64,000 nucleotides of DNA, from NCBI GenBank assembly GCA_011052815.1, contig DRIG01000095.1, forward strand, positions 8,943 to 72,942, in the 5' to 3' direction. The stretch is from a candidate division WOR-3 bacterium (GTDB lineage: Bacteria > Hydrothermota > Tepidihabitantia > SM23-42). Positions 5,394 through 63,620 of the stretch are shown here, one piece after another; position 1 is the first letter of the stretch, and the number at the start of each line of letters is the position of its first letter. The notes below the pieces were generated by a model. The model saw only the letters and a program-made list of their open reading frames with translations, did not search any database and was not told where the DNA came from. Position numbers and translations under genes: made by a program.

Positions 5394-5421
5394 TTGACAA
5401 TTATGAAAATTCTAATATAAT
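5394..5421 (+). promoter_or_regulatory. Consensus sigma-70 promoter driving the tRNA Arg-Lys-His cluster.
   Basis: TTGACA 5394-5399, 16-nt spacer, TATAAT 5416-5421. This sits about 175 nt upstream of the first tRNA. Confidence 0.5.
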
Positions 5422-5596
5422 AAATTAAAAATTAAATGGTATGAGGCCTCCACGAATGTTTTTGTCGCCGTTTACAAAAACTGAGTGGAGAATAGGGGGG
5501 AGAATCCCCCATCATTAAGGGGGGTTCAAAGGCTTCCGAAAGGAATTTTTCGGTGTTTAAAAATTCCGTCAGGGAAAAAGGGGGTGCTCCCCCTTT

Positions 5597-5670
5597 GCGC
5601 CTGTAGCTCAGTTGGATAGAGCAACGGATTTCTAATCCGTAGGTCGTGGGTTCGAATCCCTCCAGGCGTG
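5597..5670 (+). tRNA. tRNA-Arg (anticodon TCT)
   Basis: Cloverleaf with GCGCCTG/CAGGCGT acceptor stem, TTCGAATCC T-loop, and anticodon loop TTTCTAA. Confidence 0.85.
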
Positions 5671-5675
5671 TATCT

Positions 5676-5749
5676 GCCCCGCTAGCTCAATCTGGCAGAG
5701 CAACGGATTCTTAATCCGTGGGTTGCAGGTTCAAGTCCTGCGCGGGGTA
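5676..5749 (+). tRNA. tRNA-Lys (anticodon CTT)
   Basis: Acceptor GCCCCGC/GCGGGGT, anticodon loop TTCTTAA, T-loop GGTTCAAGTCC. Confidence 0.85.
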
Positions 5750-5759
5750 TATAGAATGT

Positions 5760-5833
5760 GGTGAGTGTAGCTCAACTGGCAGAGCATTGGACTGTGGTTC
5801 CAATGGTTGGGGGTTCAAGTCCCCTCACTCACC
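5760..5833 (+). tRNA. tRNA-His (anticodon GTG) with the extra 5' G-1.
   Basis: G-1 followed by GTGAGTG/CACTCAC acceptor stem and a C discriminator. Anticodon loop CTGTGGT. Confidence 0.85.
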
Positions 5834-5845
5834 CTTTTTTTTCAA
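5834..5845 (+). terminator. T8 run immediately after tRNA-His; possible end of the tRNA transcript.
   Basis: CCCTTTTTTTTC directly follows the tRNA-His acceptor stem. Confidence 0.3.
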
Positions 5846-5870: not shown

Positions 5871-7034
5871 TCATCTGTTTTTCCGCCAGTATCTTCTTTC
5901 CAGTCGTTTCACCATCTCTTCACGTTTTGCGTAAAGACGGCGCAGAGGGCGCCTTTTGTGTTTTGCCAGCGCATAATGTACAAGCAACGGTAGAGCGACT
6001 GTCGCATCCAGATAACAGACTACGGCATCAGGCAGACGATTGGGATCGACCTTTCCCCAGGACACGGCTTCATGAGGAGTCGCGCCCGAAAGACCACCGG
6101 TGTCAGGACGGGCGTCTGTGATCTGGAGAAAATAATCATGCCCCACATCCGGAATATGAAGGATCTCCTGAATATGGGGTTCGGTCTGAAGCATAAAATT
6201 TTTGGGACTGCCGCCGCCGATGATCACCACTGCCGATTTGTTTTTAGAACTCTTCGCCGCATAAACAATTGCTGCGGTTTCATTGACATCAAGTGACGGA
6301 AGTATGCGTGTACTGAAATTACGAAGTCTGTTCTCTGCAAGGTGCATCCCCAGTGCGGAATCTCCGGGTGCGCTTGTATATACGGGGACCTTTGCCCGAT
6401 ATGCCGCTGCCAGGATTGATGAACCTTTGATATGATTCTTCTCTTCTTCACGCGCCGCATACTTCCCGAGCAGATAATGAAACTCGGCGCTGCCCATCTC
6501 TTTTTGGAACTCATCTTGACTCAATATCTCACGTAACCGCCTGTCTGTCTCAACCAGACAATCAGGATAACTGAGCAGAATATCATAAATTCTCACCACA
6601 TTGTTTTTCTTCAAGTCTGTATCATCAATATGATGAGTCCCCCTGTGCAGTTTAAGATTGAATGCGAAGTGAAGATCATGAAACAGATTCGCTCCTGTCG
6701 ACACAATCCAGTCGACGAATCCGGCATTGATCAAAGGAACAACAGCGGACTTCCCGAGGCCGGCGGGTGTAAGAGCACCGGACAAACTTAATCCAACATA
6801 AACTTTCGGCTCAAGCATCTTTTCCACATAAAGACGACAAGCCTCCTGAATCCGTGCTGCATTATACGCAAGGAACGTCTTATTGATAAGTTCAACAGCC
6901 CTTTCTTTACCGGTTATCGATTTCGGGAAGATTCTGGGACCTTTTAAATATCTATCTTTCAAACGCCTTTTTTTCTTAAGCCATTCAGGGCTGTAGTCAT
7001 ACCCTTTTTTATAAGGTATTCGTTTCTTCCTCAT
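5871..7034 (-). CDS. Deoxyhypusine synthase-like protein (DHS family).
   Basis: Motifs [20 protein letters not shown] and [11 protein letters not shown] match DHS family signatures. Confidence 0.65.
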
Positions 7035-7073
7035 ATCTCTTCAGTAAAAAAACCGCACAATACGAAGTTCTCC

Positions 7074-7961
7074 TTAATAAGCAATGAGGTCTTCATCAAA
7101 GGAGCTCAAAGACCCCTCCACCTGCCAGATCCGTAATTTCATTTCTTTTAATCTTCCCAGAAGGTTATACATATCTTCATTCAGTTCCTTCAACTCGATG
7201 TTTGATATGGTTATCGGATCATGTTTTAAATGAACCCGGTGGATCGGCAAATCGGGAAAATTTCTTAAAAGACGGGGAGTCAAAATCAAGAGATCAATTA
7301 AGGTATACCCCTCTCCTGTCTTTGTGATCTTCAGAGGGTAAAACAACGACTCACTTTTGAATTGATATTGGATCGGTTCATTTGTTACGAACTCTTCAGT
7401 AAGTGAAACAAGATCAAAGACGAACCAGATAAAGCCGTCGGCGATATATTCCTCAATCAACTCTTGCATCTCAGCGGAAATTATATTTTTTTCGACACCA
7501 AGTGACTTAAGATACTTCGCAACCCAATCAACGAACTTCGCACCGTTGATAAGACGGGTTACGGAAATGTCATGGGCTCCGATTTTTTTGTGGAATGTCA
7601 CCTCACCGCCGGGAACGGCTTCCTTCGCACCTTCACCATTCCTCTTGCTCAAACCTGCTGATGAGGCGAGTTTACTGTTGATCAATGCAGTCGCCTTCTG
7701 GAATGTTTTGATATCTCCTTTCTTGACTGCAGGTTCAGCAGGTAAAGGAAGCACTTCCAGAAGGATGGTTGAATCGGATGCGTGAAGATCAGTGCTGAGC
7801 AGAAGAATTTCTTCTTCACCATTCCAGGCGATCATGGCTCTTTGATTCGGTTCGAAAATTTGAACATTGGGGTTAAGTGGAAGCAAACCACGGTCACTGT
7901 ACCCGGGTGAGAGAAAACCAAGCGTGTAGACTGACGTCACGACAAGGATTATTTTTCTCAT
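7074..7961 (-). CDS. Hypothetical exported protein.
   Basis: Signal peptide (MRKIILVVTSVYTLGFLSPG). No motif recognised. Confidence 0.45.
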   Translation of the reverse strand: MRKIILVVTSVYTLGFLSPGYSDRGLLPLNPNVQIFEPNQRAMIAWNGEEEILLLSTDLHASDSTILLEVLPLPAEPAVKKGDIKTFQKATALINSKLASSAGLSKRNGEGAKEAVPGGEVTFHKKIGAHDISVTRLINGAKFVDWVAKYLKSLGVEKNIISAEMQELIEEYIADGFIWFVFDLVSLTEEFVTNEPIQYQFKSESLFYPLKITKTGEGYTLIDLLILTPRLLRNFPDLPIHRVHLKHDPITISNIELKELNEDMYNLLGRLKEMKLRIWQVEGSLSSFDEDLIAY

Positions 7962-8097
7962 ATCCCATTATATAGAGATAAAAATAAAAGTCAATCACTG
8001 AATTCCCGAATTTTTCAAGAAACAAAAAGCGGGATTGAACCGGACGACCGGTTCAATCCCGCTTCTCTTTTTCAGGTTTACGGGAGAAAGAATTTAT

Positions 8098-8553
8098 TTA
8101 CTTTACTTCAACTTCTATCTGCTTCGGTTTCGCCGACTCCGGCTTCGGTAGTGTGATGTTCAACACCCCGTCTTTATAAGTCGCTTTCACTTTATCTGGA
8201 TCGACCTCAGAAGGTAACTCGATGCTTCGACAGAACTTACCGTAGTACCGTTCGATCCTGTGGAATGTTTTGTCCTTGGTCTCTTTTTCCTGTTTCCGCT
8301 CACCGGATACCGAAAGAATATTGTCCTTCACCGTCACCTTTATATCCTCTTTCTTCATACCGGGAAGTTCAGCCTTGACCTCGATATTTCCATTACTCTC
8401 TACGACATCCATCACAGGTGCCCAGAATTCTTCTTTTTCAATCGGCCCTCTACCGAAGAAATTTTCCAGAAGACGATCAAAGTCGTCTCTTAAACTCACT
8501 AAATCTCTGAACGGCTCCCATCTTATTAAATTTCTCTCTTTCATAGATACCAC
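8098..8553 (-). CDS. Hsp20/alpha-crystallin small heat-shock protein, paralogue 1.
   Basis: Alpha-crystallin domain (ELPGMKKEDIKVTVKDNILSVSGERK...). Strong RBS AGGAGG. Shares long identical stretches with the gene at 17156-17602 (~85-90% nucleotide identity by eye over the aligned stretches). Confidence 0.9.
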   Translation of the reverse strand: MVSMKERNLIRWEPFRDLVSLRDDFDRLLENFFGRGPIEKEEFWAPVMDVVESNGNIEVKAELPGMKKEDIKVTVKDNILSVSGERKQEKETKDKTFHRIERYYGKFCRSIELPSEVDPDKVKATYKDGVLNITLPKPESAKPKQIEVEVK

Positions 8554-8740
8554 CTCCTTTTTGGTCTCTCTACCCTTTAGACACCCCGGCAGCGGAAAAG
8601 TTTAGTTCAACAATACTGACTTTTGCTGAAAAAAATAAAGATAGCAATAATCTGCTCTGGTGTGCCGAAGATGCTGATGCGTCGAACTTCCTTGCGATGG
8701 GTTATTGGTTCGGATTTAAATTATGATTGGAGAATAAAAT

Positions 8741-8780
8741 AAAAAACAAAAGGGGGAGTTTACTCCCCCTTTTATTTTTT
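8741..8780. terminator. Bidirectional intrinsic-terminator-like hairpin: GGGGGAG-TTTA-CTCCCCC flanked by T-runs on both strands.
   Basis: 7-bp G/C stem 8752-8769. TTTTATTTTTT follows on the plus strand and TTTTGTTTTTT on the minus strand. It lies downstream of the minus-strand lysine-rich mini-gene. Confidence 0.5.
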
Positions 8781-8790
8781 ATAATACATT

Positions 8791-8931
8791 CTATCTCTTC
8801 TTTTTCTTGGTCTTTTTCTTGGTCTTTTTCTTGGTTTTCTTCTTAGTCGTCTTCTTCTTAGTCTTCTTCTTTGTTACTTTCTTCTTTGTTTTCTTTTTTG
8901 TTTTTTTCTTTGTTTTTCTTTTTGCAGGCAT
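8791..8931 (-). CDS. Small (~47 aa) extremely lysine-rich basic protein with KKKT repeats (MPAKRKTKKKTKKK...). An alternative start at 8943 would add MEVR.
   Basis: Minus-strand ORF missed by the track because it is under 60 aa. GGAGGT sits 4 nt before the ATG at 8929-8931. A consensus promoter lies immediately upstream and a terminator hairpin downstream. Confidence 0.55.
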   Translation of the reverse strand: MPAKRKTKKKTKKKTKKKVTKKKTKKKTTKKKTKKKTKKKTKKKKR

Positions 8932-8952
8932 TCTAACCTCCATTTGTAAATG

Positions 8953-8980
8953 ATTATAACCATAATTTTAATTTTGTCAA
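8953..8980 (-). promoter_or_regulatory. Consensus sigma-70 promoter for the lysine-rich mini-protein gene.
   Basis: On the minus strand: TTGACA (rc of 8975-8980), N16, TATAAT (rc of 8953-8958). This puts the transcription start about 5-15 nt before the start codons. Confidence 0.5.
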
Positions 8981-9196
8981 GACTTTTTTGCGGTGTAGTA
9001 ATTGAATGCTACTGTTTTATTTGTATCATTCCGACGGTAAATCTCCTGTTCTTTACCAACATTCATTAATATATCTTTATTTTAAAATAAACCTTTACTT
9101 CTCTTCTTCTGTCTAAATAAAAAATAACCTTGCAATTTTCCGAATTTTATATTAAATTAACTGATCTGAAGGTTCTGTCCATAACAGGAGGTAATC

Positions 9197-10195
9197 ATGG
9201 AAGGGATGAAGGACGAGATTAAAAAAATCCACGAGGAGATCGAAAAAGAAAGTATTATTGTGCAGACGATAACGAATGAAATCGGCAAGGCGATAGTCGG
9301 GCAGAAATATCTTATAAACAGGCTTCTGGTCGGTCTGCTTGCGGACGGGCATATTCTGATAGAAGGTGTACCAGGACTCGCAAAGACCTATGCCGTACGG
9401 ACCCTGGCCAATGTAATAAAAACCGAATTCCATCGTATCCAGTTCACCCCTGACCTTCTTCCCGCCGATATCATCGGTACAATGGTATATAATCAAAGAA
9501 CCAATGAATTCACGGTAAGTAAAGGCCCCATCTTTGCCAATCTAATACTCGCCGATGAAATAAACCGGACACCACCCAAGGTCCAGAGTGCGCTCCTCGA
9601 AGCAATGCAGGAACGGCAGGTCACGATCGGCGACAAAACCTTTAAACTGGATGATCCTTTTATGGTGTTTGCAACACAAAATCCTATAGAGCAGGAAGGA
9701 ACATATCCACTCCCGGAAGCCCAGATAGATCGTTTTCTCTTGAAGATAAAAATTACATATCCCGATAAAAAAGAAGAGAAAGAAATAGTTGAACGGATAG
9801 CGGTCGCCGGAGAACCGAAAATCAAACCGGTCGTGGATCCAAAGACGATAATCAAAGCCCGGGAGTTGTGCAAAAAAATATATATCGACGATAAAATCAA
9901 GGACTATATCATCGACCTCGTATTCGCCACCCGAGAACCGAAATCTTTCGGCCTGGAGGAACTCTCCGGTTTAATACGCTACGGCGCATCACCACGCGCT
10001 TCAATCTATCTGACCAGTACGGCACGTGCCCTTGCGTTTCTGAAACGCCGTGGTTTTGTAATTCCCGAAGATATAAAAGAACTGGCACCGGATGTCCTGC
10101 GCCATCGAATCATTCTCACTTATGAAGCCGAAGCCGAAGAAGTCACGACCGATGACGTGATCCAGAAAATATTAAGCGGTGTTGAAGTGCCATAA
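9197..10195 (+). CDS. MoxR-family AAA+ ATPase; first gene of the Bat operon.
   Basis: Walker A GVPGLAKT, MoxR-like length and context, strong RBS. Confidence 0.9.
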   Translation: MEGMKDEIKKIHEEIEKESIIVQTITNEIGKAIVGQKYLINRLLVGLLADGHILIEGVPGLAKTYAVRTLANVIKTEFHRIQFTPDLLPADIIGTMVYNQRTNEFTVSKGPIFANLILADEINRTPPKVQSALLEAMQERQVTIGDKTFKLDDPFMVFATQNPIEQEGTYPLPEAQIDRFLLKIKITYPDKKEEKEIVERIAVAGEPKIKPVVDPKTIIKARELCKKIYIDDKIKDYIIDLVFATREPKSFGLEELSGLIRYGASPRASIYLTSTARALAFLKRRGFVIPEDIKELAPDVLRHRIILTYEAEAEEVTTDDVIQKILSGVEVP

Positions 10196-10221
10196 CTGCT
10201 ACTTACTGAACGGAGACGCTG

Positions 10222-11121
10222 ATGGCTTTACTGTCAGCTGAATTTCTGAAGAAGATAAGACGCATCGAGATCCGCACGAAGAAACTGGTCAACACGATGT
10301 TCGCCGGCGAGTATAAATCAACTTTTAAAGGAACCGGTATTGAGTTTCTTGATGTAAGGGAATATCTACCCGGCGACGATGTCAGAACCATCGACTGGAA
10401 AGTAACGGCGCGCATGGGAAAACCTTATGTAAAAAAATTCGCCGAGGATCGGGAATTGACGGTGATCCTCTGTGTCGATGCATCCGGGTCAGGCCGCTTC
10501 AGCACGCGCAATCAATTCAAGCTCGAACAAGCCGCGGAGATAGCCGCAACCCTCGCCTTCTCCGCTGTCAGGAATAATGATAAAGTCGGGCTTCTCTTTT
10601 TCACTGAACAACCGGAAAAATACATCCCGCCGCGTAAAGGAAGATTCCATGTCCTGCGTCTTATTCGGGATATCTTATATTTTACTCCCCGGCACAAAGG
10701 AACGAATCCGATACTCGCCCTTGAATTTCTCATGCACATCCTCAAACACCGCGCGATCATCTTTTTTATAAGTGATTTCATCGGTGATGCCTTCTCGGTC
10801 GATGACCTGCGTATCCCCCTTGGAGTCGTGGCGAGACGCCATGATTTTGTGGTGATAACGATAAATGATCCGATGGAACATCTCCTTCCGAAAATGGGAA
10901 TCGTTGATTTGGAAGATACTGAAACCGGTGAAATAATGACAATCAATACTTCCTCGACGTCACTGCGCAATGACTACCGGGCGCATCGTATGATGGAACA
11001 GGAAAAAAGACAACGGCTTCTGAAATCACTCGGCATCGATTCGATCGAGCTTCTCACATCCGAAGACTTCACTCCGAAACTCCATAAATTCTTTCAGGAA
11101 CGCGCCAGGAGATACAGATAA
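10222..11121 (+). CDS. DUF58 family protein (vWA-like partner of MoxR).
   Basis: Conserved position after moxR. The sequence pattern is typical of DUF58. Confidence 0.8.
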   Translation: MALLSAEFLKKIRRIEIRTKKLVNTMFAGEYKSTFKGTGIEFLDVREYLPGDDVRTIDWKVTARMGKPYVKKFAEDRELTVILCVDASGSGRFSTRNQFKLEQAAEIAATLAFSAVRNNDKVGLLFFTEQPEKYIPPRKGRFHVLRLIRDILYFTPRHKGTNPILALEFLMHILKHRAIIFFISDFIGDAFSVDDLRIPLGVVARRHDFVVITINDPMEHLLPKMGIVDLEDTETGEIMTINTSSTSLRNDYRAHRMMEQEKRQRLLKSLGIDSIELLTSEDFTPKLHKFFQERARRYR

Positions 11122-11123
11122 CC

Positions 11124-12005
11124 ATGCTGTTGCTTATTGTGTTGTTGTCACAGATCGAGATTCACGCCAAGCTCGATAAACACTTCATCAATAAAAAGCT
11201 TACGGTCGGAGAGCCGTTCCAGATAATTCTGACATTAAAATATCCTCACGACCTGGACGTCTCGACTTTCTTCGTGGATTCACTTGAGCCCTTTGTGATT
11301 ATCGATCAAAAGAATAAGATGGTGCGGGAAAAAGGTTATGTCTCAAATGTATATACAATCAAAGCAGCCGCTTTTAAGACCGGTGAGCTGGAAATTCCAC
11401 CATTCAAATTTCTATACCGCCATCATGACGGTATAGATACTTTAAAGAGCAACACCATTCCCATAAGAATTGAAAGTGTCATGCCCGCGGACATGAAAGA
11501 TATAAACGATATCAAAAAAGCAATAGAATTCCCCAACTATCTACCATTGATAATCGCTGCGGTAGTCATCATCGGTGCTCTCCTTGCGTATTTTGCTTAT
11601 AAATTTTTAAAGAGGTTGAAAAAAGAACGCATAATGAGTCGGCCCTTACCCCCTCCCTGGGTGGAGGCGCTTGCCGCGATTGAAAACATTCCTGTCGTGG
11701 AGTGGCTGGAAAAAGGTTTGATCAAAAAATATTATTATACACTTTCCGAAATTTTAAAACGCTATCTTGAACGCCGTTTTGAATTCAACGCCGCCGAGCA
11801 GACGACCACCGAAATAATAAATAATTTGAAGCTCCAGAAAGTTCCATCTTATGACGGTTTTAGGAATTTCTTCACCCAGGCCGATCTGGTGAAGTACGCA
11901 AAATTCACGCCCTCATCGGATGAGATGGAAAAAGCCGTTGATGTCGCAAAAGAACTTATTGATAAAACAAAACCTCAGACAGAAGAAAGGGAGACGAACA
12001 AATGA
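11124..12005 (+). CDS. Hypothetical membrane protein of the Bat operon (DUF4381-like).
   Basis: Single transmembrane segment mid-protein. Sits between DUF58 and batA, as in Bat operons. Confidence 0.45.
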   Translation: MLLLIVLLSQIEIHAKLDKHFINKKLTVGEPFQIILTLKYPHDLDVSTFFVDSLEPFVIIDQKNKMVREKGYVSNVYTIKAAAFKTGELEIPPFKFLYRHHDGIDTLKSNTIPIRIESVMPADMKDINDIKKAIEFPNYLPLIIAAVVIIGALLAYFAYKFLKRLKKERIMSRPLPPPWVEALAAIENIPVVEWLEKGLIKKYYYTLSEILKRYLERRFEFNAAEQTTTEIINNLKLQKVPSYDGFRNFFTQADLVKYAKFTPSSDEMEKAVDVAKELIDKTKPQTEERETNK

Positions 12006-12979
12006 GATTTGCAGAACCGTGGTATCTTCTTCTTTTGCTATTGATTATTCCATTAATCTATCTCGAAACAAAGAAGAAAAGAGCCGCCGTCAGATTCTCG
12101 GACATATCCTTTTTCAAAAACACTGCAAAATACAACCGGATTCTCCATTATCTTCCCATCAGCCTTAATATAGTTGTATTGGTTCTCATAACAATCGGAC
12201 TTGCACGTCCCCAGAAAGGCAGGGTATTTGAAGAGATTGAAACAAAAGGAGTTGATATTATACTCTGTCTGGATATCTCCACGTCAATGAAGGCGGAAGA
12301 TTTCAAACCGAAGAACCGCCTCTTCGTGGCGAAAGAAAAGGCGAAAGAGTTTATCAATAAACGACGGGGCGATCGAATAGGGCTCGTCGTATTCGCCGCC
12401 GACGCACTCACTCAATGTCCATTAACCTTTGACCATAAGATTCTGAACGAACTCATTGACTATGTCGATTTCGGAATTCTTGAAGACGGCACGGCAATCG
12501 GAATGGGTTTGGCGACCGCTGTAGCACGCCTGAAAGATTCCCGGGCAAAAGAGAAAATGATTATACTCCTTACTGATGGAGTAAACAACACGGGCGAGGT
12601 TGATCCGACGAGTGCCGCGAAGATAGCTCAGGCGTATAATATCAAAGTATACTGCATCGGTGTCGGTACCAAAGGAAAAGTTCCGTATCCGGTTGACCAT
12701 CCGATATTCGGACGTCAGTACGCACAGGTGGAGATTGATTTCAATATGGAAACATTAAATGAAATCGCAGCCGCCACCGGAGGACGGGCGTTTCTCGCTT
12801 CGGACGCCGAAGCGCTGGGGGTAATCTATGACGAAATTGATAAGATGGAGCCGACCACGTTCAAAACAACAAAACACACGGTCTATTCGGAAAAAGCCGG
12901 TTGTTTCCTCCTTCCGTCTGTGATAATTTTGATTGTGAATTTTCTCCTCAACATCACAATCTTCAGGAGGTTACCGTGA
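12002..12979 (+). CDS. batA: BatA-like von Willebrand factor A domain membrane protein.
   Basis: N-terminal transmembrane segments, MIDAS motif LDISTSM, vWA fold pattern. Confidence 0.8.
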   Translation: MRFAEPWYLLLLLLIIPLIYLETKKKRAAVRFSDISFFKNTAKYNRILHYLPISLNIVVLVLITIGLARPQKGRVFEEIETKGVDIILCLDISTSMKAEDFKPKNRLFVAKEKAKEFINKRRGDRIGLVVFAADALTQCPLTFDHKILNELIDYVDFGILEDGTAIGMGLATAVARLKDSRAKEKMIILLTDGVNNTGEVDPTSAAKIAQAYNIKVYCIGVGTKGKVPYPVDHPIFGRQYAQVEIDFNMETLNEIAAATGGRAFLASDAEALGVIYDEIDKMEPTTFKTTKHTVYSEKAGCFLLPSVIILIVNFLLNITIFRRLP

Positions 12980-14604
12980 TAAAATGGGCTGAGCCTCACT
13001 ATCTTTCTTTATTGCTGTTAATCCCGCTTTTCATCATCGGAATCATCATTTATATGATGCGTAAAAAGAAAACCTTATCAAAATTCGCCGATGACCATAT
13101 TATACCGAGAATCACCGATACATTAAATAAAAAACTTCAGGTTTCAAAATATATTTTATTGATTCTGGCATTTGCTTTCCTGGTCATAAGCCTGGCACGG
13201 CCTAAATGGGGGGAAAAATTACAAATCTACAAAGGAAAGGGAATCGACGTCGTCATCGCACTTGATGCGTCAAAGAGTATGCTTGCTCAGGACATCAAAC
13301 CGGACAGATTGACCAGGGCGAAAACCGAAATCATCTCCCTGCTCGACAATCTCACCACAGACCGTGTCGGGATAACCGCATTTGCGGGTGAATGTTATAT
13401 TATGTGTCCACTAACGACAGACATTGAAGCTGCAAAACTGTTTTTAAATGTAATCTCTCCCGAAGTGATACCTAAACCGGGTACTGATCTCGAAAAGGCG
13501 ATTTCAGTTTCATGCTCGCTCTTCAACCCTGACGAAGAAACGCATAAAGCACTGATCCTCTTTACCGACGGTGACAATCTGGTGGGTGATCCGATGTCTG
13601 CCGTTGAAAAAATAAAAGATCAGGGAGTAAGACTTTTTACAATCGGTGTCGGAACAATCGAAGGCTCACCGGTTCCGGAAATAGATGAACAGGGTAATTT
13701 CAGTTCTTACAAGAAAGACAAGGATGATAAAATCGTTATGTCCCGATTGGCGGAAAGGCTTCTTATAATTCTTGCAAAGGCAACCGACGGCAGGTATTTC
13801 AGAACTGAGGGAGTCTATATAGATAGATTGGTCGGTGAACTTGACAAAATAAAGAAGAAGGAGATCGGCGGGGGTGAGTATGTGGAATATGAGGAACGTT
13901 ATCAATATTTCCTTACCATCGCATTCATCTTTCTCTTTCTCAATATCTTTCTCACGGATCGCAGAGGCAGGTGGTTTGAAAGGCTGTTCTTACTTTTTCT
14001 GTTTTCTTGCGGTTTGAATTTTGCATATGCCGATGTGGGAGCGAATATGCGGAAAGGAAATCACCTCTGTCGTAAAGGCAAATATGAAGATGCATTACAA
14101 CAATATCAAAAGGCACTGGTTCAGGAACCGGATAATCCGAAGATCCATTATAATATGGCGCGGGCATTGTATAAAACCGAAAAGTATGATGAAGCAATCA
14201 GTGAATTCGAATTAGGACTGCTTATGAAAGATGAAAAGTTCAAAGCAAACAGCTTCTATAATATCGGCAACTGCCAGTTCAGAAAGGGACAGCTCGATGC
14301 CGCAATCAACGCCTACAAAACAGCCCTCCTTTTAAATCCAGACGATATGGAAGCTAAACAGAACCTCGAATTCTGCATCAAATTGAAAGAATCCCTCAAG
14401 AACCAGCCGCAGAGTGATTCTCTCCAGCAGCAGCAACAACAACGGCAACAAAATCAACCGCAACCTCAGCCGCAGAAAAAGAAAGGTGAAATCAATAAAG
14501 AAGAAGCTGAACGGATTCTACAGGCCCTAAAAGATAAAGAAAAAGAGAATCTGAAAAAGTCAAAACAGAAAAGAAAGAAAGAAAATGTGGCGAAAGATTG
14601 GTAG
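12976..14604 (+). CDS. batB: BatB-like vWA + TPR protein. Start revised to the GTG at 12976, overlapping the batA stop.
   Basis: The N-terminus VIKWAEPHYL is paralogous to the BatA N-terminus. MIDAS LDASKSM, C-terminal TPRs, and a Q/PQ-rich tail. AGGAGG lies 6 nt before the GTG. Confidence 0.75.
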   Translation: MIKWAEPHYLSLLLLIPLFIIGIIIYMMRKKKTLSKFADDHIIPRITDTLNKKLQVSKYILLILAFAFLVISLARPKWGEKLQIYKGKGIDVVIALDASKSMLAQDIKPDRLTRAKTEIISLLDNLTTDRVGITAFAGECYIMCPLTTDIEAAKLFLNVISPEVIPKPGTDLEKAISVSCSLFNPDEETHKALILFTDGDNLVGDPMSAVEKIKDQGVRLFTIGVGTIEGSPVPEIDEQGNFSSYKKDKDDKIVMSRLAERLLIILAKATDGRYFRTEGVYIDRLVGELDKIKKKEIGGGEYVEYEERYQYFLTIAFIFLFLNIFLTDRRGRWFERLFLLFLFSCGLNFAYADVGANMRKGNHLCRKGKYEDALQQYQKALVQEPDNPKIHYNMARALYKTEKYDEAISEFELGLLMKDEKFKANSFYNIGNCQFRKGQLDAAINAYKTALLLNPDDMEAKQNLEFCIKLKESLKNQPQSDSLQQQQQQRQQNQPQPQPQKKKGEINKEEAERILQALKDKEKENLKKSKQKRKKENVAKDW

Positions 14605-16345
14605 ACTATTCATCTTAACACAGATAATCTTATTTGCCGAAGAACTGAATTTCACTGCGTCAGTCAACCGAACCGAAGTGGGGCTTGATGAAGCCGTGGT
14701 TCTGACGGTCTCGGTCGAGGGAAATAATATCGATAAAATTCCTTCACCCCAATTACCTGATCTTCCGGACTTCGACATCGGCGGTACTTCATCTTCACAA
14801 TCAACCAGCATTCAAATAATCAACGGGAAATTCACCAAACAACAGTTAATCAACTTCATCTACACTCTATATCCGAAAAAAATCGGTGAACTGACGATTG
14901 GAATTTGTAAATTGGAATTTCAGGGAAAAACATACACCACCCAACCGATAAAAATAACCGTGATAAAAGGAAAAACAAAACCAGCCCGGCCTCCGTCAGC
15001 AGGGCCGGCCCCTTCAGAGCCACGGGTTCCCATCAGTGAAAATTTGAAACTGCTGGCGAGTGTCAATCGTAAAACCATCTATCTCGGAGAACAGGTCAAT
15101 GTCGAATTCAGCCTCTACAATCGATTGAATTTGAGCAATCTTAATCTCACAGAAACGCCGTCGTTCAGCGGTTTTTGGGTGGAGCCGATCTTTGATGCAA
15201 AAAAGATAAATTTCCAAAAGAAGAGCATCAACGGGAAATTATATGAAGTGTGTCTTTTGAAAAAAGCGGCCCTCTTTCCGATGACGACCGGCAAATTGAA
15301 AATCGGTCCGATGAAAATGGACGCGGAAATAGTACAACCTCCCCGTGACTTCTTCGATTTTTTCGGCAGGGCAAAAGTAGTGCAACTCGAATCTGAGCCA
15401 CTCTATATCACGGTCAAGCCTTTACCGGAAACCGGCAAGCCTGAAGAATTCACCGGCGGTGTCGGTCGATTCTCGATGTCAGCGACACTCGACAGAACAA
15501 CTTCTGAAGCGGCTGAACCGATCACCCTGACCATCAAAATCAAGGGAACGGGCAATATCAGGTTGATCGAAAAACCGAAAATTCCTCCAATTTCAGGAGT
15601 TAAAGTTCTCGACCCGGAAACAAAAGACAATGTCAAGATCGTAAATAACCGGGTAAAGGGCTACAAGGAGTTCCGCTATCCTCTTATTCCCCAGGTTGAC
15701 GGCGAACATCTTATTCCATCGATAAAGATCGCTTATTTCGACCCACGGGACAAAAAATATCACACGATAAAGACCGAACAGCTGACATTCACCGCCACCC
15801 GCACCACTGCCGCCGCCGAAGCGGTGCGAGCGGGCGGTCTTAAAATACTGGGCAGTGACATCAATTACATCAAATCCGACAGGCTGCGTCTGACCGCGCA
15901 AAAATATTCTGCAGATTGGTGGGTGCTTCTAATGTATTTTGCATCGTTGATAATCGTCGGGTTATCCCTGATCTACCGTCGTCATCAAGCAAAACTGCTC
16001 ACTGACCGCGCTTATGCAAGAAAATTACGTGCCAATAAAGAAGTGAGAAGAAAGATAAAGGAAGCGGAACGTTGTTTGGCGAAACAGGAAATCCAAAAGT
16101 TTTACGGACTTTTATCGAAGATCCTTATCGGTTATATCGGCGACCGCTTCAATCTTGACACCCGGATGCTCACCAGAGAGCAGTTGACAGAGGAACTGAT
16201 CAAACGAAATGTAAAAGAAGAACTCGTGAAAAGAATATCTACTGTTATCGAACGATGTGAAACAGTACGTTTTTCACCAGGCGGAGAATATGATGAACCG
16301 ATGGATATGCTGCAGCGAATAAAGGAGATTATCCGTGAATTATAA
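14585..16345 (+). CDS. batD: BatD-like oxygen-tolerance protein.
   Basis: Signal peptide, ~586 aa, C-terminal transmembrane segment followed by a charged tail. Canonical position in the Bat operon. Confidence 0.7.
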   Translation: MWRKIGRLFILTQIILFAEELNFTASVNRTEVGLDEAVVLTVSVEGNNIDKIPSPQLPDLPDFDIGGTSSSQSTSIQIINGKFTKQQLINFIYTLYPKKIGELTIGICKLEFQGKTYTTQPIKITVIKGKTKPARPPSAGPAPSEPRVPISENLKLLASVNRKTIYLGEQVNVEFSLYNRLNLSNLNLTETPSFSGFWVEPIFDAKKINFQKKSINGKLYEVCLLKKAALFPMTTGKLKIGPMKMDAEIVQPPRDFFDFFGRAKVVQLESEPLYITVKPLPETGKPEEFTGGVGRFSMSATLDRTTSEAAEPITLTIKIKGTGNIRLIEKPKIPPISGVKVLDPETKDNVKIVNNRVKGYKEFRYPLIPQVDGEHLIPSIKIAYFDPRDKKYHTIKTEQLTFTATRTTAAAEAVRAGGLKILGSDINYIKSDRLRLTAQKYSADWWVLLMYFASLIIVGLSLIYRRHQAKLLTDRAYARKLRANKEVRRKIKEAERCLAKQEIQKFYGLLSKILIGYIGDRFNLDTRMLTREQLTEELIKRNVKEELVKRISTVIERCETVRFSPGGEYDEPMDMLQRIKEIIREL

Positions 16346-16377
16346 TTATTCGGACAGAAGATATCCGGGAGAGTAAA

Positions 16378-17118
16378 ATGGTTTCAATATTGATTATTCT
16401 GACGGCTCTGAATTCAAACATAACTGCGGCTGATTTATATAACGAAGGCAACAGAGCCTATGAAAAAGGAGATTACAAAACCGCTGTTGAAAAATATGAA
16501 GAAGCCGCCTTGAGGATCAGAAATTCTGATCTTTACTACAATTTGGGAAACAGTTATTTTAAAGCGGGAAATATAGGAAAGGCAATCGTCAACTACCGAA
16601 GGGCATATTTCCTCAATCCCCGGGATGGTGATATAAAACATAACTTGGCGTTTGTAAGAAGATATCGTGTGGATAAAATCAACATCATTGAAAGTCCGAT
16701 AACAAAATTTTTCTCGGCGCTCTTCCACTTTCTGACCATAACTGAAGCGCAAAATCTGGCGGCGTTCTCATTTTTCCTCACCGCTGTTCTGGTTTCACTC
16801 TTTCTGATTATGAGAAAAAAAATCTACGGCTATGCAGCGATGGTCACTGTGATATCATTTTTCTTCTTTTTAATCAACTGGCAGATCTGGCGCCGTGAAT
16901 CGATTTCCTCCGATGCAGTGGTGGTCGTACCGGAAGTCACGGCTTTCAGCGGACCCGGTGATGAATACAAAGAAATTCTTGTAATCCACGACGGTGCTGA
17001 AGTGAAAATCCGGGAGATAAGAAACAATTACGCCCTGGTCCAGCTGCCCGGTGGTATCGGCGGCTGGGTCGACCTCAACGGTTTCGAAAAAATCTTCCCC
17101 CTCCCCACCTCCGATTAA
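16378..17118 (+). CDS. batE: BatE-like TPR + SH3b-domain membrane protein.
   Basis: N-terminal TPRs, a transmembrane segment, and a C-terminal SH3-like beta domain. Last gene of the Bat operon. Confidence 0.6.
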   Translation: MVSILIILTALNSNITAADLYNEGNRAYEKGDYKTAVEKYEEAALRIRNSDLYYNLGNSYFKAGNIGKAIVNYRRAYFLNPRDGDIKHNLAFVRRYRVDKINIIESPITKFFSALFHFLTITEAQNLAAFSFFLTAVLVSLFLIMRKKIYGYAAMVTVISFFFFLINWQIWRRESISSDAVVVVPEVTAFSGPGDEYKEILVIHDGAEVKIREIRNNYALVQLPGGIGGWVDLNGFEKIFPLPTSD

Positions 17119-17155: not shown

Positions 17156-17602
17156 TTATTTAATCTCTACATCAATCTGTCTCGGTTTTTCCTCTTCGAG
17201 TTTGGGCAATGTGATGTTCAACACCCCGTCTTTATAAGTGGCTTTGATCTTGTTTGAATCAACGGTCGACGGTAAAGAAATCGTCCTGCTGAATTTGCCG
17301 TATGAGCGTTCGATCCTGTGGAATGTTTTGTCCTTGGTCTCTTTTTCCTGTTTCCGCTCACCGGAAATCGAAAGGACATTATCACGCACCGTCACCTTTA
17401 TATCCTCTTTCTTCATACCGGGAAGTTCGGCTTTGACAATGTAGTTTTCATTATCTTCCTCAATGTCAATCACCGGTGACCAAAAACCTTCTTTCTCCTC
17501 AGGAAAACCGCTGAAGAAACTTTTGAAAAACCGATCCATATCCGCCCTCAAATTCAGCATATCCCGAAAAGGTTCCCATTTATCCAGAAATTTATCCGCC
17601 AT
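17156..17602 (-). CDS. Hsp20/alpha-crystallin small heat-shock protein, paralogue 2.
   Basis: Near-identical core to the 8098-8553 gene (GERKQEKETKDKTFHRIER). RBS GGAGG. Confidence 0.9.
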   Translation of the reverse strand: MADKFLDKWEPFRDMLNLRADMDRFFKSFFSGFPEEKEGFWSPVIDIEEDNENYIVKAELPGMKKEDIKVTVRDNVLSISGERKQEKETKDKTFHRIERSYGKFSRTISLPSTVDSNKIKATYKDGVLNITLPKLEEEKPRQIDVEIK

Positions 17603-25934: not shown

Positions 25935-25962
25935 TTGACATCAGGAAAACATTGGCTATAAT
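25935..25962 (+). promoter_or_regulatory. Consensus sigma-70 promoter for the radical SAM gene.
   Basis: TTGACA 25935-25940, N16, TATAAT 25957-25962. Confidence 0.5.
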
Positions 25963-33189: not shown

Positions 33190-33324
33190 GGGGTCAGATC
33201 TCGAAACTTGACAAATTATCACTTCTCATTATAATAACTTCGTGGTCAAACCATTGAAAACAGGATTCCGATGTTTTTCACCACAACAAGATGAGGGAGT
33301 TGTCAAGTTTCGAGATCTGACCCC
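33190..33324. repeat. Hairpin element, copy 2: the same 25-bp perfect inverted arms around an 85-nt loop. Ends 2 nt before tRNA-Arg.
   Basis: Exact match to the copy 1 arms. It contains the tRNA-Arg promoter. Confidence 0.75.
33208..33235 (+). promoter_or_regulatory. Consensus promoter of tRNA-Arg(TCG), embedded in hairpin element copy 2.
   Basis: TTGACA 33208-33213 lies inside the left arm. After a 16-nt spacer, TATAAT 33230-33235 lies in the loop. The tRNA starts about 85 nt downstream. Confidence 0.55.
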
Positions 33325-39895: not shown

Positions 39896-39957
39896 TGTAC
39901 ATTATATCCGAAAACAAAAGAATGTCAAGTTAAAAATGCACCCCTGGAAATTCGCGG

Positions 39958-51214: not shown

Positions 51215-51242
51215 TTGACAACAGTAGTGAATTTTATATAAT
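51215..51242 (+). promoter_or_regulatory. Consensus sigma-70 promoter for the aminotransferase / phosphomutase / deiminase gene string.
   Basis: TTGACA 51215-51220, N16, TATAAT 51237-51242. AGGAGG RBS at the ATG at 51260. Confidence 0.5.
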
Positions 51243-58498: not shown

Positions 58499-58787
58499 CG
58501 GTCGTGCACTCCCTTCGCCAGTCTCTCCAGGAACAGAAAGGCGAAGAGCTCAGACCAGGTTTCCTTATGACCGGCCCATTTCTACTTACCGCTGCTTCTT
58601 TCCAGACCTGACGGGGTTTGTAGCTGGTACCATCATAAGACCCAATCCTCAACACTCTTCAACTCCTCACTGTCGCCCCTGAAAAGTACTGTCTCAAATG
58701 GAGCCTTCAGTCCCGCATAAGCGGATTTCGGGTCATCCGCCAAACGGCGGATTCAAGGCACCGCTAACTCCCCACTTAGCACGACCG
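58499..58787 (-). ncRNA. ffs: Signal recognition particle RNA, long (Bacillus-type) form with an Alu domain.
   Basis: The reverse complement begins GGUCGUGCUAAGUGGGGAGUUAGCGGUGCC (5' Alu motif). It contains the domain IV motif GUCAGGUCUGGAAAGAAGCAGC and ends GUGCACGACC, which pairs with the 5' end. It sits immediately upstream of dnaX, as in many bacteria. No ORF in the region. Confidence 0.75.
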
Positions 58788-63592: not shown

Positions 63593-63620
63593 TTGACATG
63601 TTTGAAATTATATGTATAAT
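63593..63620 (+). promoter_or_regulatory. Consensus sigma-70 promoter upstream of the last gene.
   Basis: TTGACA 63593-63598, N16, TATAAT 63615-63620. About 140-nt leader. Confidence 0.5.

What the first reader, a model, noticed from the sequence alone, without database searches (positions are those of the whole stretch)
8791..8980. Strongly expressed poly-lysine mini-protein (KKKT repeats)
An unannotated ~47-aa ORF, MPAKRKTKKKTKKKTKKKVTKKKTKKKTTKKKTKKKTKKKTKKKKR, is about 70% Lys. It has a perfect TTGACA-N16-TATAAT promoter, a GGAGGT RBS and a G/C hairpin terminator.

The features point to a very abundant basic protein. Candidates include a histone-H1-like nucleoid or condensation protein, or a polyanion-binding (RNA or polyphosphate) factor. 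Such genes are usually missed by length filters.
Basis: partly seen in the sequence, partly recalled or inferred. Interest (0 to 1): 0.5.

Follow-up and report, generated by a model that had tools for sequence, protein, structure and literature searches.

The report
Conserved oligolysine microprotein gene, WOR-3
A tiny gene with its own promoter and terminator, in an uncultured WOR-3 bacterium, encodes a 46-residue peptide that is two-thirds lysine; related bacteria keep the gene, so it is real, but its probable role as a charge-neutralising binder of DNA or RNA is untested.

Summary
On the minus strand there is a perfect TTGACA-N16-TATAAT promoter, a GGAGGT-N4-ATG start, a 46-codon ORF (8931..8791; 30 Lys, 2 Arg, 10 Thr) and a strong hairpin terminator.

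I traced homologues of the adjacent Hsp20 gene to their contigs. This gave eight distinct versions of the mini-gene in six WOR-3 lineages (Hsp20 identity 99-74%). All keep the promoter, the SD-ATG spacing, a 30-46 aa ORF with 65-73% Lys+Arg and no acidic or aromatic residue, and the terminator.

- **Selection on the peptide:** substitutions are almost all at third codon positions. Window vs L236 has 12 synonymous and 2 Lys/Arg changes. Indels are whole codons.
- **Conservation island:** flanking intergenic DNA is only 44-45% identical, but the stretch from promoter to start codon is 94% identical.
- **Codon choice:** Lys codons are biased to AAG, so A-runs stay at 7 or fewer.
- **Not a leader peptide:** there is no antiterminator, and the downstream gene is convergent in four lineages.

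The function is inferred only. The peptide is most likely a histone-H1-tail or protamine-like polycation that binds DNA, or perhaps RNA. "Very abundant" is unproven, because perfect promoters are common in this genome. No known family matches.

The parts
8981..8990 (-). A-rich tract directly upstream of the -35 hexamer (CAAAAAAGTC); may act as a UP element
   Evidence: The run of A is invariant in seven aligned orthologous units. Its function is inferred.
8975..8980 (-). -35 hexamer TTGACA
   Evidence: Identical in all eight orthologues.
8953..8958 (-). -10 hexamer TATAAT, 16 nt after the -35
   Evidence: It reads TATAAT in the window, L239, L240, L236 and L237, and TATACT in L245, L248 and L252.
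8936..8941 (-). Shine-Dalgarno GGAGGT, 4 nt before the ATG
   Evidence: GGAGGT-N4-ATG is invariant in all orthologues. The MoxR gene at 9197 has the same spacing.
8791..8931 (-). Coding sequence: 46 codons plus TAG. The product has about +32 net charge and a mass of 5.6 kDa.
   Evidence: The frame, the start codon and the composition are conserved in relatives. Window vs L236 shows 12 synonymous and 2 nonsynonymous differences, distributed 0/2/14 by codon position.
8798..8921 (-). 12-nt (TKKK) tandem array inside the CDS, about 9 units. The three 3'-most units are identical in DNA.
   Evidence: Near-identical strains differ here by whole-codon indels, giving 46, 43 and 42 aa.
8739..8782 (-). 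Intrinsic terminator: GGGGGAG-TAAA-CTCCCCC followed by a T-run. It is symmetrical, so it can act in both directions.
   Evidence: A GGGGGAG/CTCCCCC hairpin is kept in seven versions; L252 has GGGGG/CCCCC.

Best explanation
This is a genuine monocistronic gene for a 46-residue oligolysine microprotein. It belongs to a family of 30-46 aa proteins in one sub-clade of the candidate phylum WOR-3.

**Shown.** A consensus sigma-70-type promoter, a short leader of about 15 nt, a consensus SD and a terminator frame the ORF. The coding mRNA is purine-only and unstructured. Selection acts on the encoded peptide: its composition, its frame, and a small residue (T, A or V) about every fourth position.

**Inferred.**
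- Lys codons are biased to AAG to avoid slippery A-runs, which points to heavy or accurate translation.
- The product (+20 to +32 net charge, no acidic or aromatic residue) is disordered when free. It is helix-prone once its charge is neutralised.
- It acts purely by electrostatics, binding nucleic-acid phosphates without sequence specificity.
- The most likely target is chromosomal DNA. The peptide would work like the C-terminal tail of histone H1, a protamine, or chlamydial Hc2, neutralising charge and compacting or stabilising the nucleoid.
- Repeat slippage changes its length and charge between strains.
For: **Gene signals:**

**Conservation across six lineages** (Hsp20 identity 99-74%):
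- L239, 43 aa, and L240, 42 aa
- L236, 43 aa
- L237, 37 aa
- L245, 30 aa
- L248, 31 aa
- L252/L253, 43 aa

The unit aligns from the -35 hexamer to the terminator.

**Purifying selection:**
- Window vs L236: 12 synonymous and 2 K/R changes, distributed 0/2/14 by codon position.
- L245 vs L248: 5 synonymous and 1 nonsynonymous.
- All indels are whole codons.
- Within the gene, all 14 differences between units are at position 3.

**Conservation island:** promoter to start is 94% identical, against 44-45% for the flanking intergenic DNA and 75-77% for the neighbouring genes.

**Codon choice:**
- AAG:AAA is 19:11 in the ORF and 203:389 in large ORFs of the window (P = 0.001).
- The longest A-run is 7 (P = 0.004).
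- The same pattern holds in L239, L236 and L237.

**mRNA:** the coding part is unstructured.

**Composition:** all eight members have 65-73% K+R and no D, E, F, W or Y.

**Structure prediction:** AlphaFold predicts one continuous helix, residues 3-45.

**Parallel with Hc2:** length polymorphism by repeat number is also reported for the lysine-rich repeats of chlamydial Hc2 (abstract of PMC2848022, listed).
Against: - No experiment or expression data were available. DNA binding is inferred only from charge.
- Such a polycation would bind RNA, ribosomes or polyphosphate as readily as DNA.
- No homology to Hc1, Hc2, linker histone or any other Pfam, NCBIfam or PDB entry.
- The gene is missing from the syntenic region in sister WOR-3 lineages (L241-244, L250, L251, L254, L004, L005). 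It is therefore not a universal chromatin component of the phylum.
- The perfect promoter is not exceptional in this genome.
- The AlphaFold helix for a low-complexity poly-Lys sequence without an alignment is weak evidence.
- The codon alignments used a scoring scheme that favours synonymous matches, and low-complexity alignments are ambiguous. The plain nucleotide alignment shows the same third-position pattern.
Confidence: 0.5

Rival explanations
1. The peptide is RNA- or ribosome-associated. It could be a tiny accessory ribosomal protein, or an RNA chaperone or counter-ion that binds rRNA or mRNA instead of DNA. Known comparisons are eL41, bTHX and bS22, or the disordered Lys-rich RNA-binding region reported for PhaF.
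For: - It has the same size class and charge as the smallest ribosomal proteins.
- It has strong translation signals and a monocistronic unit.
- It lies next to stress genes. In sister lineages that lack the mini-gene, an RRM_1 RNA-binding protein sits just upstream of the same Hsp20 gene. A cold-shock-domain gene is nearby in L245 and L252.
- A disordered H1-like region acting on RNA has been reported for PhaF (abstract of PMC12818456, listed).
Against: - Ribosomal proteins are normally sequence-conserved, fixed in length and phylum-wide. This peptide is a slipping repeat of 30-46 aa with a patchy distribution.
- No Pfam or NCBIfam ribosomal family matches.
- It is not in a ribosomal-protein operon.
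Confidence: 0.25
2. The peptide is a partner of polyphosphate granules or another polyanion. It would act as a counter-ion or scaffold for polyphosphate, as reported for the H1-like protein AlgP in Pseudomonas.
For: It has extreme positive charge. AlgP, a Lys-rich repeat protein, associates with polyphosphate granules (abstract of PMC9239181, listed).
Against: No ppk or other polyphosphate gene was identified among the nearby genes that I examined. AlgP has KPAA-type repeats and is much larger, and no homology was found.
Confidence: 0.07
3. The peptide is an exported or surface-acting polycationic peptide, either antimicrobial or cell-penetrating. It would be a ribosomal analogue of epsilon-poly-lysine.
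For: Polycationic peptides are membrane-active. Bacterial homopoly(amino acid)s are known (PMC9606270, listed).
Against: - It has no signal peptide and no hydrophobic residues.
- No transporter, immunity or maturation gene is next to it in any of the six lineages.
Confidence: 0.04
4. The ORF is a cis-acting leader peptide or attenuator. Translation of the Lys-rich ORF would sense Lys-tRNA supply or ribosome stalling and control read-through of the terminator into the downstream Hsp20 gene.
For: In the window the ORF, a terminator and then Hsp20 lie on the same strand, 238 nt apart. The ORF holds 30 Lys codons.
Against: - The purine-only coding RNA cannot pair with the terminator, and no antiterminator fold exists.
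- In L237, L245, L248 and L252 the next gene after the terminator is convergent. In L237, L245 and L252 Hsp20 lies 2.4-7 kb away.
- Lys composition and peptide length are under selection well beyond what a sensor needs.
Confidence: 0.03
5. The region is not a protein gene. It would be a polypurine tandem repeat that matters as DNA (H-DNA or triplex) or as a small non-coding RNA, and the open frame is incidental.
For: - Sequences encoding (KKKT)n are common simple repeats. The pattern has 72 matches in viral contigs, many of them on giant-virus (GVMAG) contigs and most in incidental short frames.
- Stop codons are rare in purine tracts, so all frames tend to stay open.
Against: - The SD-N4-ATG is conserved and always sets the Lys frame.
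- Differences concentrate at third codon positions, and G falls at position 3 in 20 of 23 cases.
- Indels are whole codons.
- The repeat units differ between lineages (TKKK, AKKK, KAKKKTKAKPKR), but Lys+Arg content stays at 65-73%.
- No Rfam family matches except sub-threshold hits on the terminator hairpin.
Confidence: 0.03

Closest known systems
Chlamydial histone H1-like protein Hc2 (hctB; Pfam HC2 PF07382) and Hc1 (PF07432)
   Same: It is a bacterial low-complexity protein rich in Lys with Ala, Thr, Val and Arg spacers, built from short tandem repeats. Repeat number and protein length vary between strains, as reported for Hc2 (PMC2848022). It presumably acts by electrostatic condensation of DNA.
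   Different: - No detectable sequence relationship (no Pfam hit at E <= 10 for seven members tested).
- It is 30-46 aa, against 165-237 aa for Hc2.
- Charge density is higher: about 3 of every 4 residues are Lys.
- It comes from another phylum, and no developmental cycle is known.
C-terminal tail of eukaryotic linker histone H1, and protamine-like sperm proteins
   Same: It is a disordered polycation with a small residue between Lys clusters. Such tails are helix-prone when bound to DNA, and they neutralise charge and compact DNA.
   Different: It has no globular winged-helix domain (PF00538 does not match) and no S/TPKK proline motif in most members. It is a free-standing peptide and not a tail. 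It is rich in Lys, whereas true protamines are rich in Arg.
AlgP/AlgR3 and PhaF of Pseudomonas, and the Lys-rich tails of actinobacterial HU (MDP1, HupS), TopA and Ku
   Same: These are bacterial Lys-rich repeat regions that bind DNA, RNA or polyphosphate without sequence specificity (papers listed).
   Different: In those proteins the repeats are of KPAA or PAKKA type and are attached to folded domains or lie in much larger proteins. Here the repeat is the whole protein.
Smallest basic ribosomal proteins (bTHX, bS22, bL34, bL36, eL41)
   Same: They are 25-46 aa and very basic, and length filters often miss them.
   Different: Those proteins are Arg/Lys-mixed, non-repetitive, fixed in length and widely conserved. 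This family is repetitive, variable in length and patchy in distribution. It matches no ribosomal model.

Membership tests
Hc2 / Hc1 chlamydial histone H1-like proteins | Sequence match to Pfam HC2 (PF07382) or Hc1 (PF07432) | tested here: not met
   hmmscan against Pfam-A gave no family at E <= 1 for the window protein and none at E <= 10 for seven family members. Low-complexity bias filters lower the sensitivity.
Hc2 / Hc1 chlamydial histone H1-like proteins | Lys-rich short tandem repeats whose copy number varies between strains | tested here: met
   The array has 12-nt TKKK units. Near-identical strains carry 46, 43 and 42 aa variants.
Hc2 / Hc1 chlamydial histone H1-like proteins | Binds and condenses DNA | not testable with these tools
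   This needs EMSA, condensation assays or expression in vivo.
Eukaryotic-type linker histone H1 | Globular winged-helix domain (Pfam Linker_histone PF00538) | tested here: not met
   The protein is 46 aa of low complexity only, with no Pfam match. AlphaFold predicts a single helix and no globular domain.
AlgP-type polyphosphate-granule H1-like proteins | KPAA-type repeats in a large protein | tested here: not met
   The repeats are TKKK, AKKK or KAKKKTKAKPKR in proteins of 30-46 aa.
AlgP-type polyphosphate-granule H1-like proteins | Association with polyphosphate granules | not testable with these tools
   This needs localisation or binding experiments.
Small basic ribosomal proteins (bTHX, bS22, bL34, bL36 and similar) | Match to a ribosomal-protein model | tested here: not met
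   No Pfam or NCBIfam hit.
Small basic ribosomal proteins (bTHX, bS22, bL34, bL36 and similar) | Conserved sequence and length | tested here: not met
   Length ranges from 30 to 46 aa.
Small basic ribosomal proteins (bTHX, bS22, bL34, bL36 and similar) | Broad phylogenetic presence | tested here: inconclusive
   The gene is absent from the syntenic region in several sister lineages. A copy elsewhere in those genomes could not be excluded.
Small basic ribosomal proteins (bTHX, bS22, bL34, bL36 and similar) | Physical presence in the ribosome | not testable with these tools
   This needs ribosome purification with mass spectrometry, or cryo-EM.
Amino-acid attenuator leader peptides (his, trp, thr type) | Alternative antiterminator and terminator RNA structures | tested here: not met
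   The terminator hairpin is the only sizeable structure the transcript forms. The coding part is unpaired.
Amino-acid attenuator leader peptides (his, trp, thr type) | Regulated operon immediately downstream on the same strand | tested here: not met
   The downstream gene is convergent in L237, L245, L248 and L252.

The most novel reading that the evidence does not exclude
The family is a ribosomally made oligolysine that serves as a bulk cellular polycation. It would be a genetically encoded substitute for, or partner of, long-chain polyamines, driving condensation or coacervation of DNA, RNA or polyphosphate under stress.

It might also be modified on its lysines by the deoxyhypusine-synthase-like enzymes. 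In every lineage where the contig reaches that far (all but L236, L239/L240 and L248), these are encoded in the Hsp20-DUF2330-DS block, about 2 kb away in the window and 4-10 kb away in L237, L245 and L252 (with ornithine/arginine decarboxylase in L245 and L252). That would be a new class of bacterial microprotein with no folded domain.
Probability: 0.1. Interest if true: 0.75.

Novelty: new variant of a known kind. Interest (0 to 1): 0.5.

Why it matters
**Size and composition.** If the peptide is made, it is among the most lysine-dense natural bacterial proteins that stand alone. It is in effect a gene-encoded oligolysine, and selection conserves its composition more than its sequence.

**What it would add.**
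- A minimal, domain-free member of the bacterial H1-like or protamine-like nucleoid proteins, from a phylum with almost no experimental biology.
- A natural test case for how bacterial ribosomes and RNA polymerase handle near-continuous Lys codons. The AAG bias and the cap on A-runs suggest selection against slippage.

**Blind spots it exposes.**
- It is too short for the protein collections searched here. In both look-ups of sequences this short, no exact sequence under 50 aa was on record.
- HMM-based searches cannot see it because of low-complexity filtering.
- Trypsin would cut it into fragments too small for standard proteomics.
- Gene callers disagree on it. It was called in some records but not in L248 or L253.

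Tried and rejected
**Searches with the peptide that found nothing**
- Searches of the 5.8-billion-protein collection, the 1.84-billion representative set, Pfam, NCBIfam and PDB all returned nothing.
- These nulls say little. Low-complexity filtering removes such hits, and the collections appear to hold no protein under about 50 aa. Only a 70-aa over-called version of the L245 gene is present.

**Synteny searches**
- A search from MoxR in GTDB genomes found the nearest genomes, WOR-3 MAGs at 83-84% identity. They have a different upstream neighbourhood and no Lys-rich ORF.
- A search from Hsp20 in JGI metagenomes found no Lys-rich ORF near the closest hits, at 77-69% identity.
- These two results at first suggested an orphan gene. 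Tracing Hsp20 homologues through the larger assembly index then found the orthologues.

**DNA pattern search**
- A search for (KKKT)3 in viral contigs gave 72 hits. Most are incidental low-complexity repeats, many on giant-virus contigs, so the pattern is not specific. I ran no further search on it.

**Readings rejected**
- The attenuator reading was rejected from the RNA fold and the comparative gene order.
- The non-coding RNA reading was rejected: Rfam hits are only sub-threshold matches to the terminator.

**Other dead ends**
The single-sequence model is one helix, too simple for a fold search.
- A literature search for the sample accessions found nothing.
- No paper describing such a microprotein was found.

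Full report
**1. What is in the sequence**

On the minus strand of 8739-8990 lies a complete small transcription unit.
- An A-tract is followed by TTGACA (8980-8975), a 16-nt spacer and TATAAT (8958-8953).
- GGAGGT (8941-8936) is followed by four bases and ATG at 8931.
- A 46-codon ORF ends with TAG at 8793-8791.
- 21 nt after the stop comes the hairpin GGGGGAG-TAAA-CTCCCCC and a T-run.

The product is MPAKRKTKKKTKKKTKKKVTKKKTKKKTTKKKTKKKTKKKTKKKKR. It has 30 Lys (65%), 2 Arg and 10 Thr, no acidic or aromatic residue, a net charge of about +32 and a mass of 5.6 kDa.

The predicted transcript folds only at the terminator and a small stem at its 5' end. The purine-only coding part is unpaired.

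**2. Is it more than chance?**

- The window holds seven perfect TTGACA-N16-TATAAT sites against 0.01 expected. Perfect consensus promoters are therefore a real signal in this genome.
- They are also common. They precede two tRNA loci and genes for a radical-SAM protein, a TetR regulator and an aminotransferase.
- The promoter is thus good evidence for transcription, but not for exceptional abundance.

The ORF is a 12-nt tandem array of about 9 units.
- Among the nine ACN-AAR-AAR-AAR units, all 14 differences are at third codon positions and none at the 72 first and second positions.
- 20 of the 23 G residues are at codon position 3.
- A drifting non-coding purine repeat would not show this pattern.

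**3. Source organism**

The adjacent Hsp20 protein is identical to one from an NCBI record named 'MAG TPA: candidate division WOR-3 bacterium', on a contig of 79,256 bases. The nearest GTDB genomes by MoxR are WOR-3 MAGs at 83-84% identity. The exact mini-protein is encoded on four independently assembled contigs.
- Two are identical to the window.
- A third is 98.7% identical. All three of its differences lie upstream of the promoter, at 9024, 9038 and 9067.

**4.

Direct protein searches were blind, for two reasons.
- The peptide is filtered out as low complexity.
- The collections appear to hold no proteins this short.

The first two synteny scans found no counterpart. I then searched for Hsp20 homologues and fetched their contigs. 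This produced orthologous mini-genes in six lineages.

| Locus | Hsp20 identity | Length | Sequence |
|---|---|---|---|
| L239 | 99% | 43 aa | as the window, with whole-codon indels in the repeat |
| L240 | 99% | 42 aa | as the window, with whole-codon indels in the repeat |
| L236 | 86% | 43 aa | MPAKKKTKKKTKKKTVKKKKVTKKKTKKTTKKKTKKKTKKRKR |
| L237 | 80% | 37 aa | MPAKKKAKRKAKKKTKKKKKVVRKKKTKKKAKKKKKR |
| L245 | 79% | 30 aa | MAAKKKAKKKVMKKKAKPKKKTKKAKKRKK |
| L248 | 76% | 31 aa | MAAKKKAKKKVMKKSAKPKKKTKKKAKKRKK |
| L252/L253 | 74% | 43 aa | MAAKRKKKKVTKKKTKAKPKRKAKKKTKAKPKRKAKKKTKKKR |

Every version keeps these features:
- TTGACA, a 16-nt spacer, and TATAAT or TATACT
- GGAGGT-N4-ATG
- a G5/C5 hairpin terminator

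Substitution patterns point to selection on the peptide.
- Window vs L236: 12 synonymous and 2 Lys/Arg differences, distributed 0/2/14 by codon position.
- L245 vs L248: 5 synonymous and 1 nonsynonymous.
- Every indel is a whole number of codons.

Between the window and L236, identity varies sharply by segment.

| Segment | Nucleotide identity |
|---|---|
| MoxR and Hsp20 coding sequences | 75-77% |
| Flanking intergenic DNA | 44-45% |
| Promoter to start codon | 94% |
| Mini-ORF | 75% |
| Stop codon to end of terminator | 78% |

The unit is therefore an island of constraint.

What is conserved is composition and pattern, not exact sequence or length. All members have 65-73% Lys+Arg, no Asp, Glu, Phe, Trp or Tyr, and a small residue about every fourth position.

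The gene is absent within 10 kb of Hsp20 in several sister lineages (L241-244, L250, L251, L254). Most of those carry an RRM_1 gene just upstream of Hsp20. The family is therefore restricted to a sub-clade, or it has moved elsewhere in those genomes.

**5. Translation-related signal**

- Lys codons are AAG:AAA = 19:11 in the ORF, against 203:389 in large ORFs of the window (P = 0.001).
- The longest A-run is 7, where synonymous resampling gives a mean of 11 (P = 0.004).
- The same holds in L239, L236 and L237 (P = 0.0006-0.013). It is weak in the two shortest members.
- From general knowledge, runs of AAA promote ribosome and polymerase slippage. The bias therefore fits a sequence that is really translated.

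**6. Mechanism**

*Shown:* a conserved, independently transcribed, protein-coding microgene under selection for an extreme polycationic composition.

*Inferred:* the peptide is disordered when free and helix-prone when its charge is neutralised. AlphaFold gives one helix, residues 3-45, with pLDDT 94. That is a weak result for a low-complexity sequence run without an alignment. The peptide would bind polyanions without sequence specificity.

I rank DNA and nucleoid binding first, with confidence about 0.5. It would compact or stabilise DNA like an H1 tail, a protamine or Hc2. The reasons are the free-standing repeat architecture and the strain-level length polymorphism, which parallels chlamydial Hc2 (PMC2848022, listed).

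The rivals rank as follows.
- **RNA or ribosome association, about 0.25.** This is the main rival. It fits the small size, the stress-gene neighbourhood, and the RRM protein that occupies the same position in lineages lacking the mini-gene. The repeat instability and patchy distribution argue against a core ribosomal protein.
- **Polyphosphate binding, about 0.07.**
- **An exported antimicrobial role, about 0.04.** No signal peptide, transporter or polyphosphate gene supports this rival or the polyphosphate one.
- **A leader peptide or attenuator for Hsp20, about 0.03.** No antiterminator can form. In four lineages the next gene is convergent, and in L237, L245 and L252 Hsp20 is 2.4-7 kb away.
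- **A purely non-coding repeat or sRNA, about 0.03.** The codon-position pattern and the conserved SD-ATG contradict it. Rfam matches only the terminator, below threshold.

**7. Comparison with known families**

Functionally the nearest are these:
- chlamydial Hc2 and Hc1
- the H1 C-terminal tail and protamine-like proteins
- AlgP and PhaF
- the Lys-rich tails of actinobacterial HU, TopA and Ku

By size the nearest are the smallest ribosomal proteins. Membership in any of these families failed where it could be tested.
- No Pfam, NCBIfam or PDB match.
- No globular H1 domain.
- No KPAA repeats.
- Not fixed in length.

I therefore file it as something that probably works like an H1 tail or Hc2, but is not a member of those families.

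**8. Novelty and verdict**

I found no description of a free-standing 30-46 aa bacterial protein with about 65% Lys. The gene is called inconsistently: it is missing from the gene calls of L248 and L253.

I rate it a new variant of a known kind, a minimal domain-free bacterial polycationic nucleoid-type protein. Interest is 0.5. The gene is real and unusual, but its function is unproven and its phylogenetic range is narrow.

Noticed in passing
window 5394-5421(+), 8953-8980(-), 25935-25962(+), 33208-33235(+), 39901-39928(-), 51215-51242(+), 63593-63620(+): There are seven perfect TTGACA-N16-TATAAT promoters in 64 kb against 0.01 expected, all with a 16-nt spacer. They precede tRNA loci and ordinary genes (radical SAM, TetR, class-III aminotransferase). 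This lineage seems to use near-consensus promoters with a 16-nt spacer very widely.
   Followed up: partly
window 5596-5834 (+): A tRNA cluster Arg(TCT)-Lys(CTT)-His(GTG) lies behind a perfect promoter, 3 kb from the mini-gene. Lys(CTT) and Arg(TCT) read AAG and AGA, which supply 21 of the 32 Lys and Arg codons in the mini-ORF. This may be coincidence.
   Followed up: no
L156:1661-1993; L243:9595-9894; L250:9602-9895; L254:9597-9893: In most WOR-3 lineages that lack the Lys-rich mini-gene (not L241/L242), a small RRM_1 RNA-binding protein sits directly upstream of the orthologous Hsp20. In L156 it has an Arg/Gly-rich tail. This could be a positional counterpart or only a difference in synteny.
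   Followed up: partly
window 5871-8553 (-); L237:3001-5646; L245:7822-13298; L252:10001-15259: The block Hsp20 - DUF2330 - deoxyhypusine-synthase-like (DS) is conserved across WOR-3. In L245 and L252 it is expanded with an ornithine/arginine decarboxylase and a second DS paralogue, so it is a polyamine-pathway neighbourhood close to the Lys-rich gene.
   Followed up: no
window 8024-8067: A long, perfect 17-20 bp bidirectional hairpin (AAGCGGGATTGAACCGG-loop-CCGGTTCAATCCCGCTT) follows Hsp20. It is much longer than an ordinary terminator stem.
   Followed up: no
window 17156-17602 (-): A second Hsp20 paralogue is present. A 39-nt stretch inside it (17399-17437) is 95% identical to the first copy. 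This is where short-read contigs L001 and L002 break.
   Followed up: no
window 9197-17118 (+): A MoxR-DUF58-BatA/BatB/BatD-TPR operon (Bacteroides aerotolerance type) runs divergently from the mini-gene. The divergent arrangement with MoxR is kept in five of the six lineages that carry the mini-gene.
   Followed up: partly
window 58502-58784 (-): A large-type bacterial SRP RNA is present (Rfam RF01854, 131 bits).
   Followed up: no
L084-L155 (viral contigs): Simple repeats encoding (KKKT)n are frequent in viral contigs, many of them giant-virus (GVMAG) contigs: 72 loci match (KKKT)3. Most lie in incidental short frames or as tracts inside larger proteins.
   Followed up: partly
L245:5250-5462; L248:8900-8995; L253:2564-2695: Gene callers treat the family inconsistently. 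It is over-called as a 70-aa protein in L245, not called at all in L248 and L253, and called correctly in L236, L239, L240 and L252. The exact-sequence look-ups found none of the eight sequences of 41-147 aa tried, seven of them 50 aa or shorter; only the 70-aa over-call of the L245 gene was on record.
   Followed up: yes
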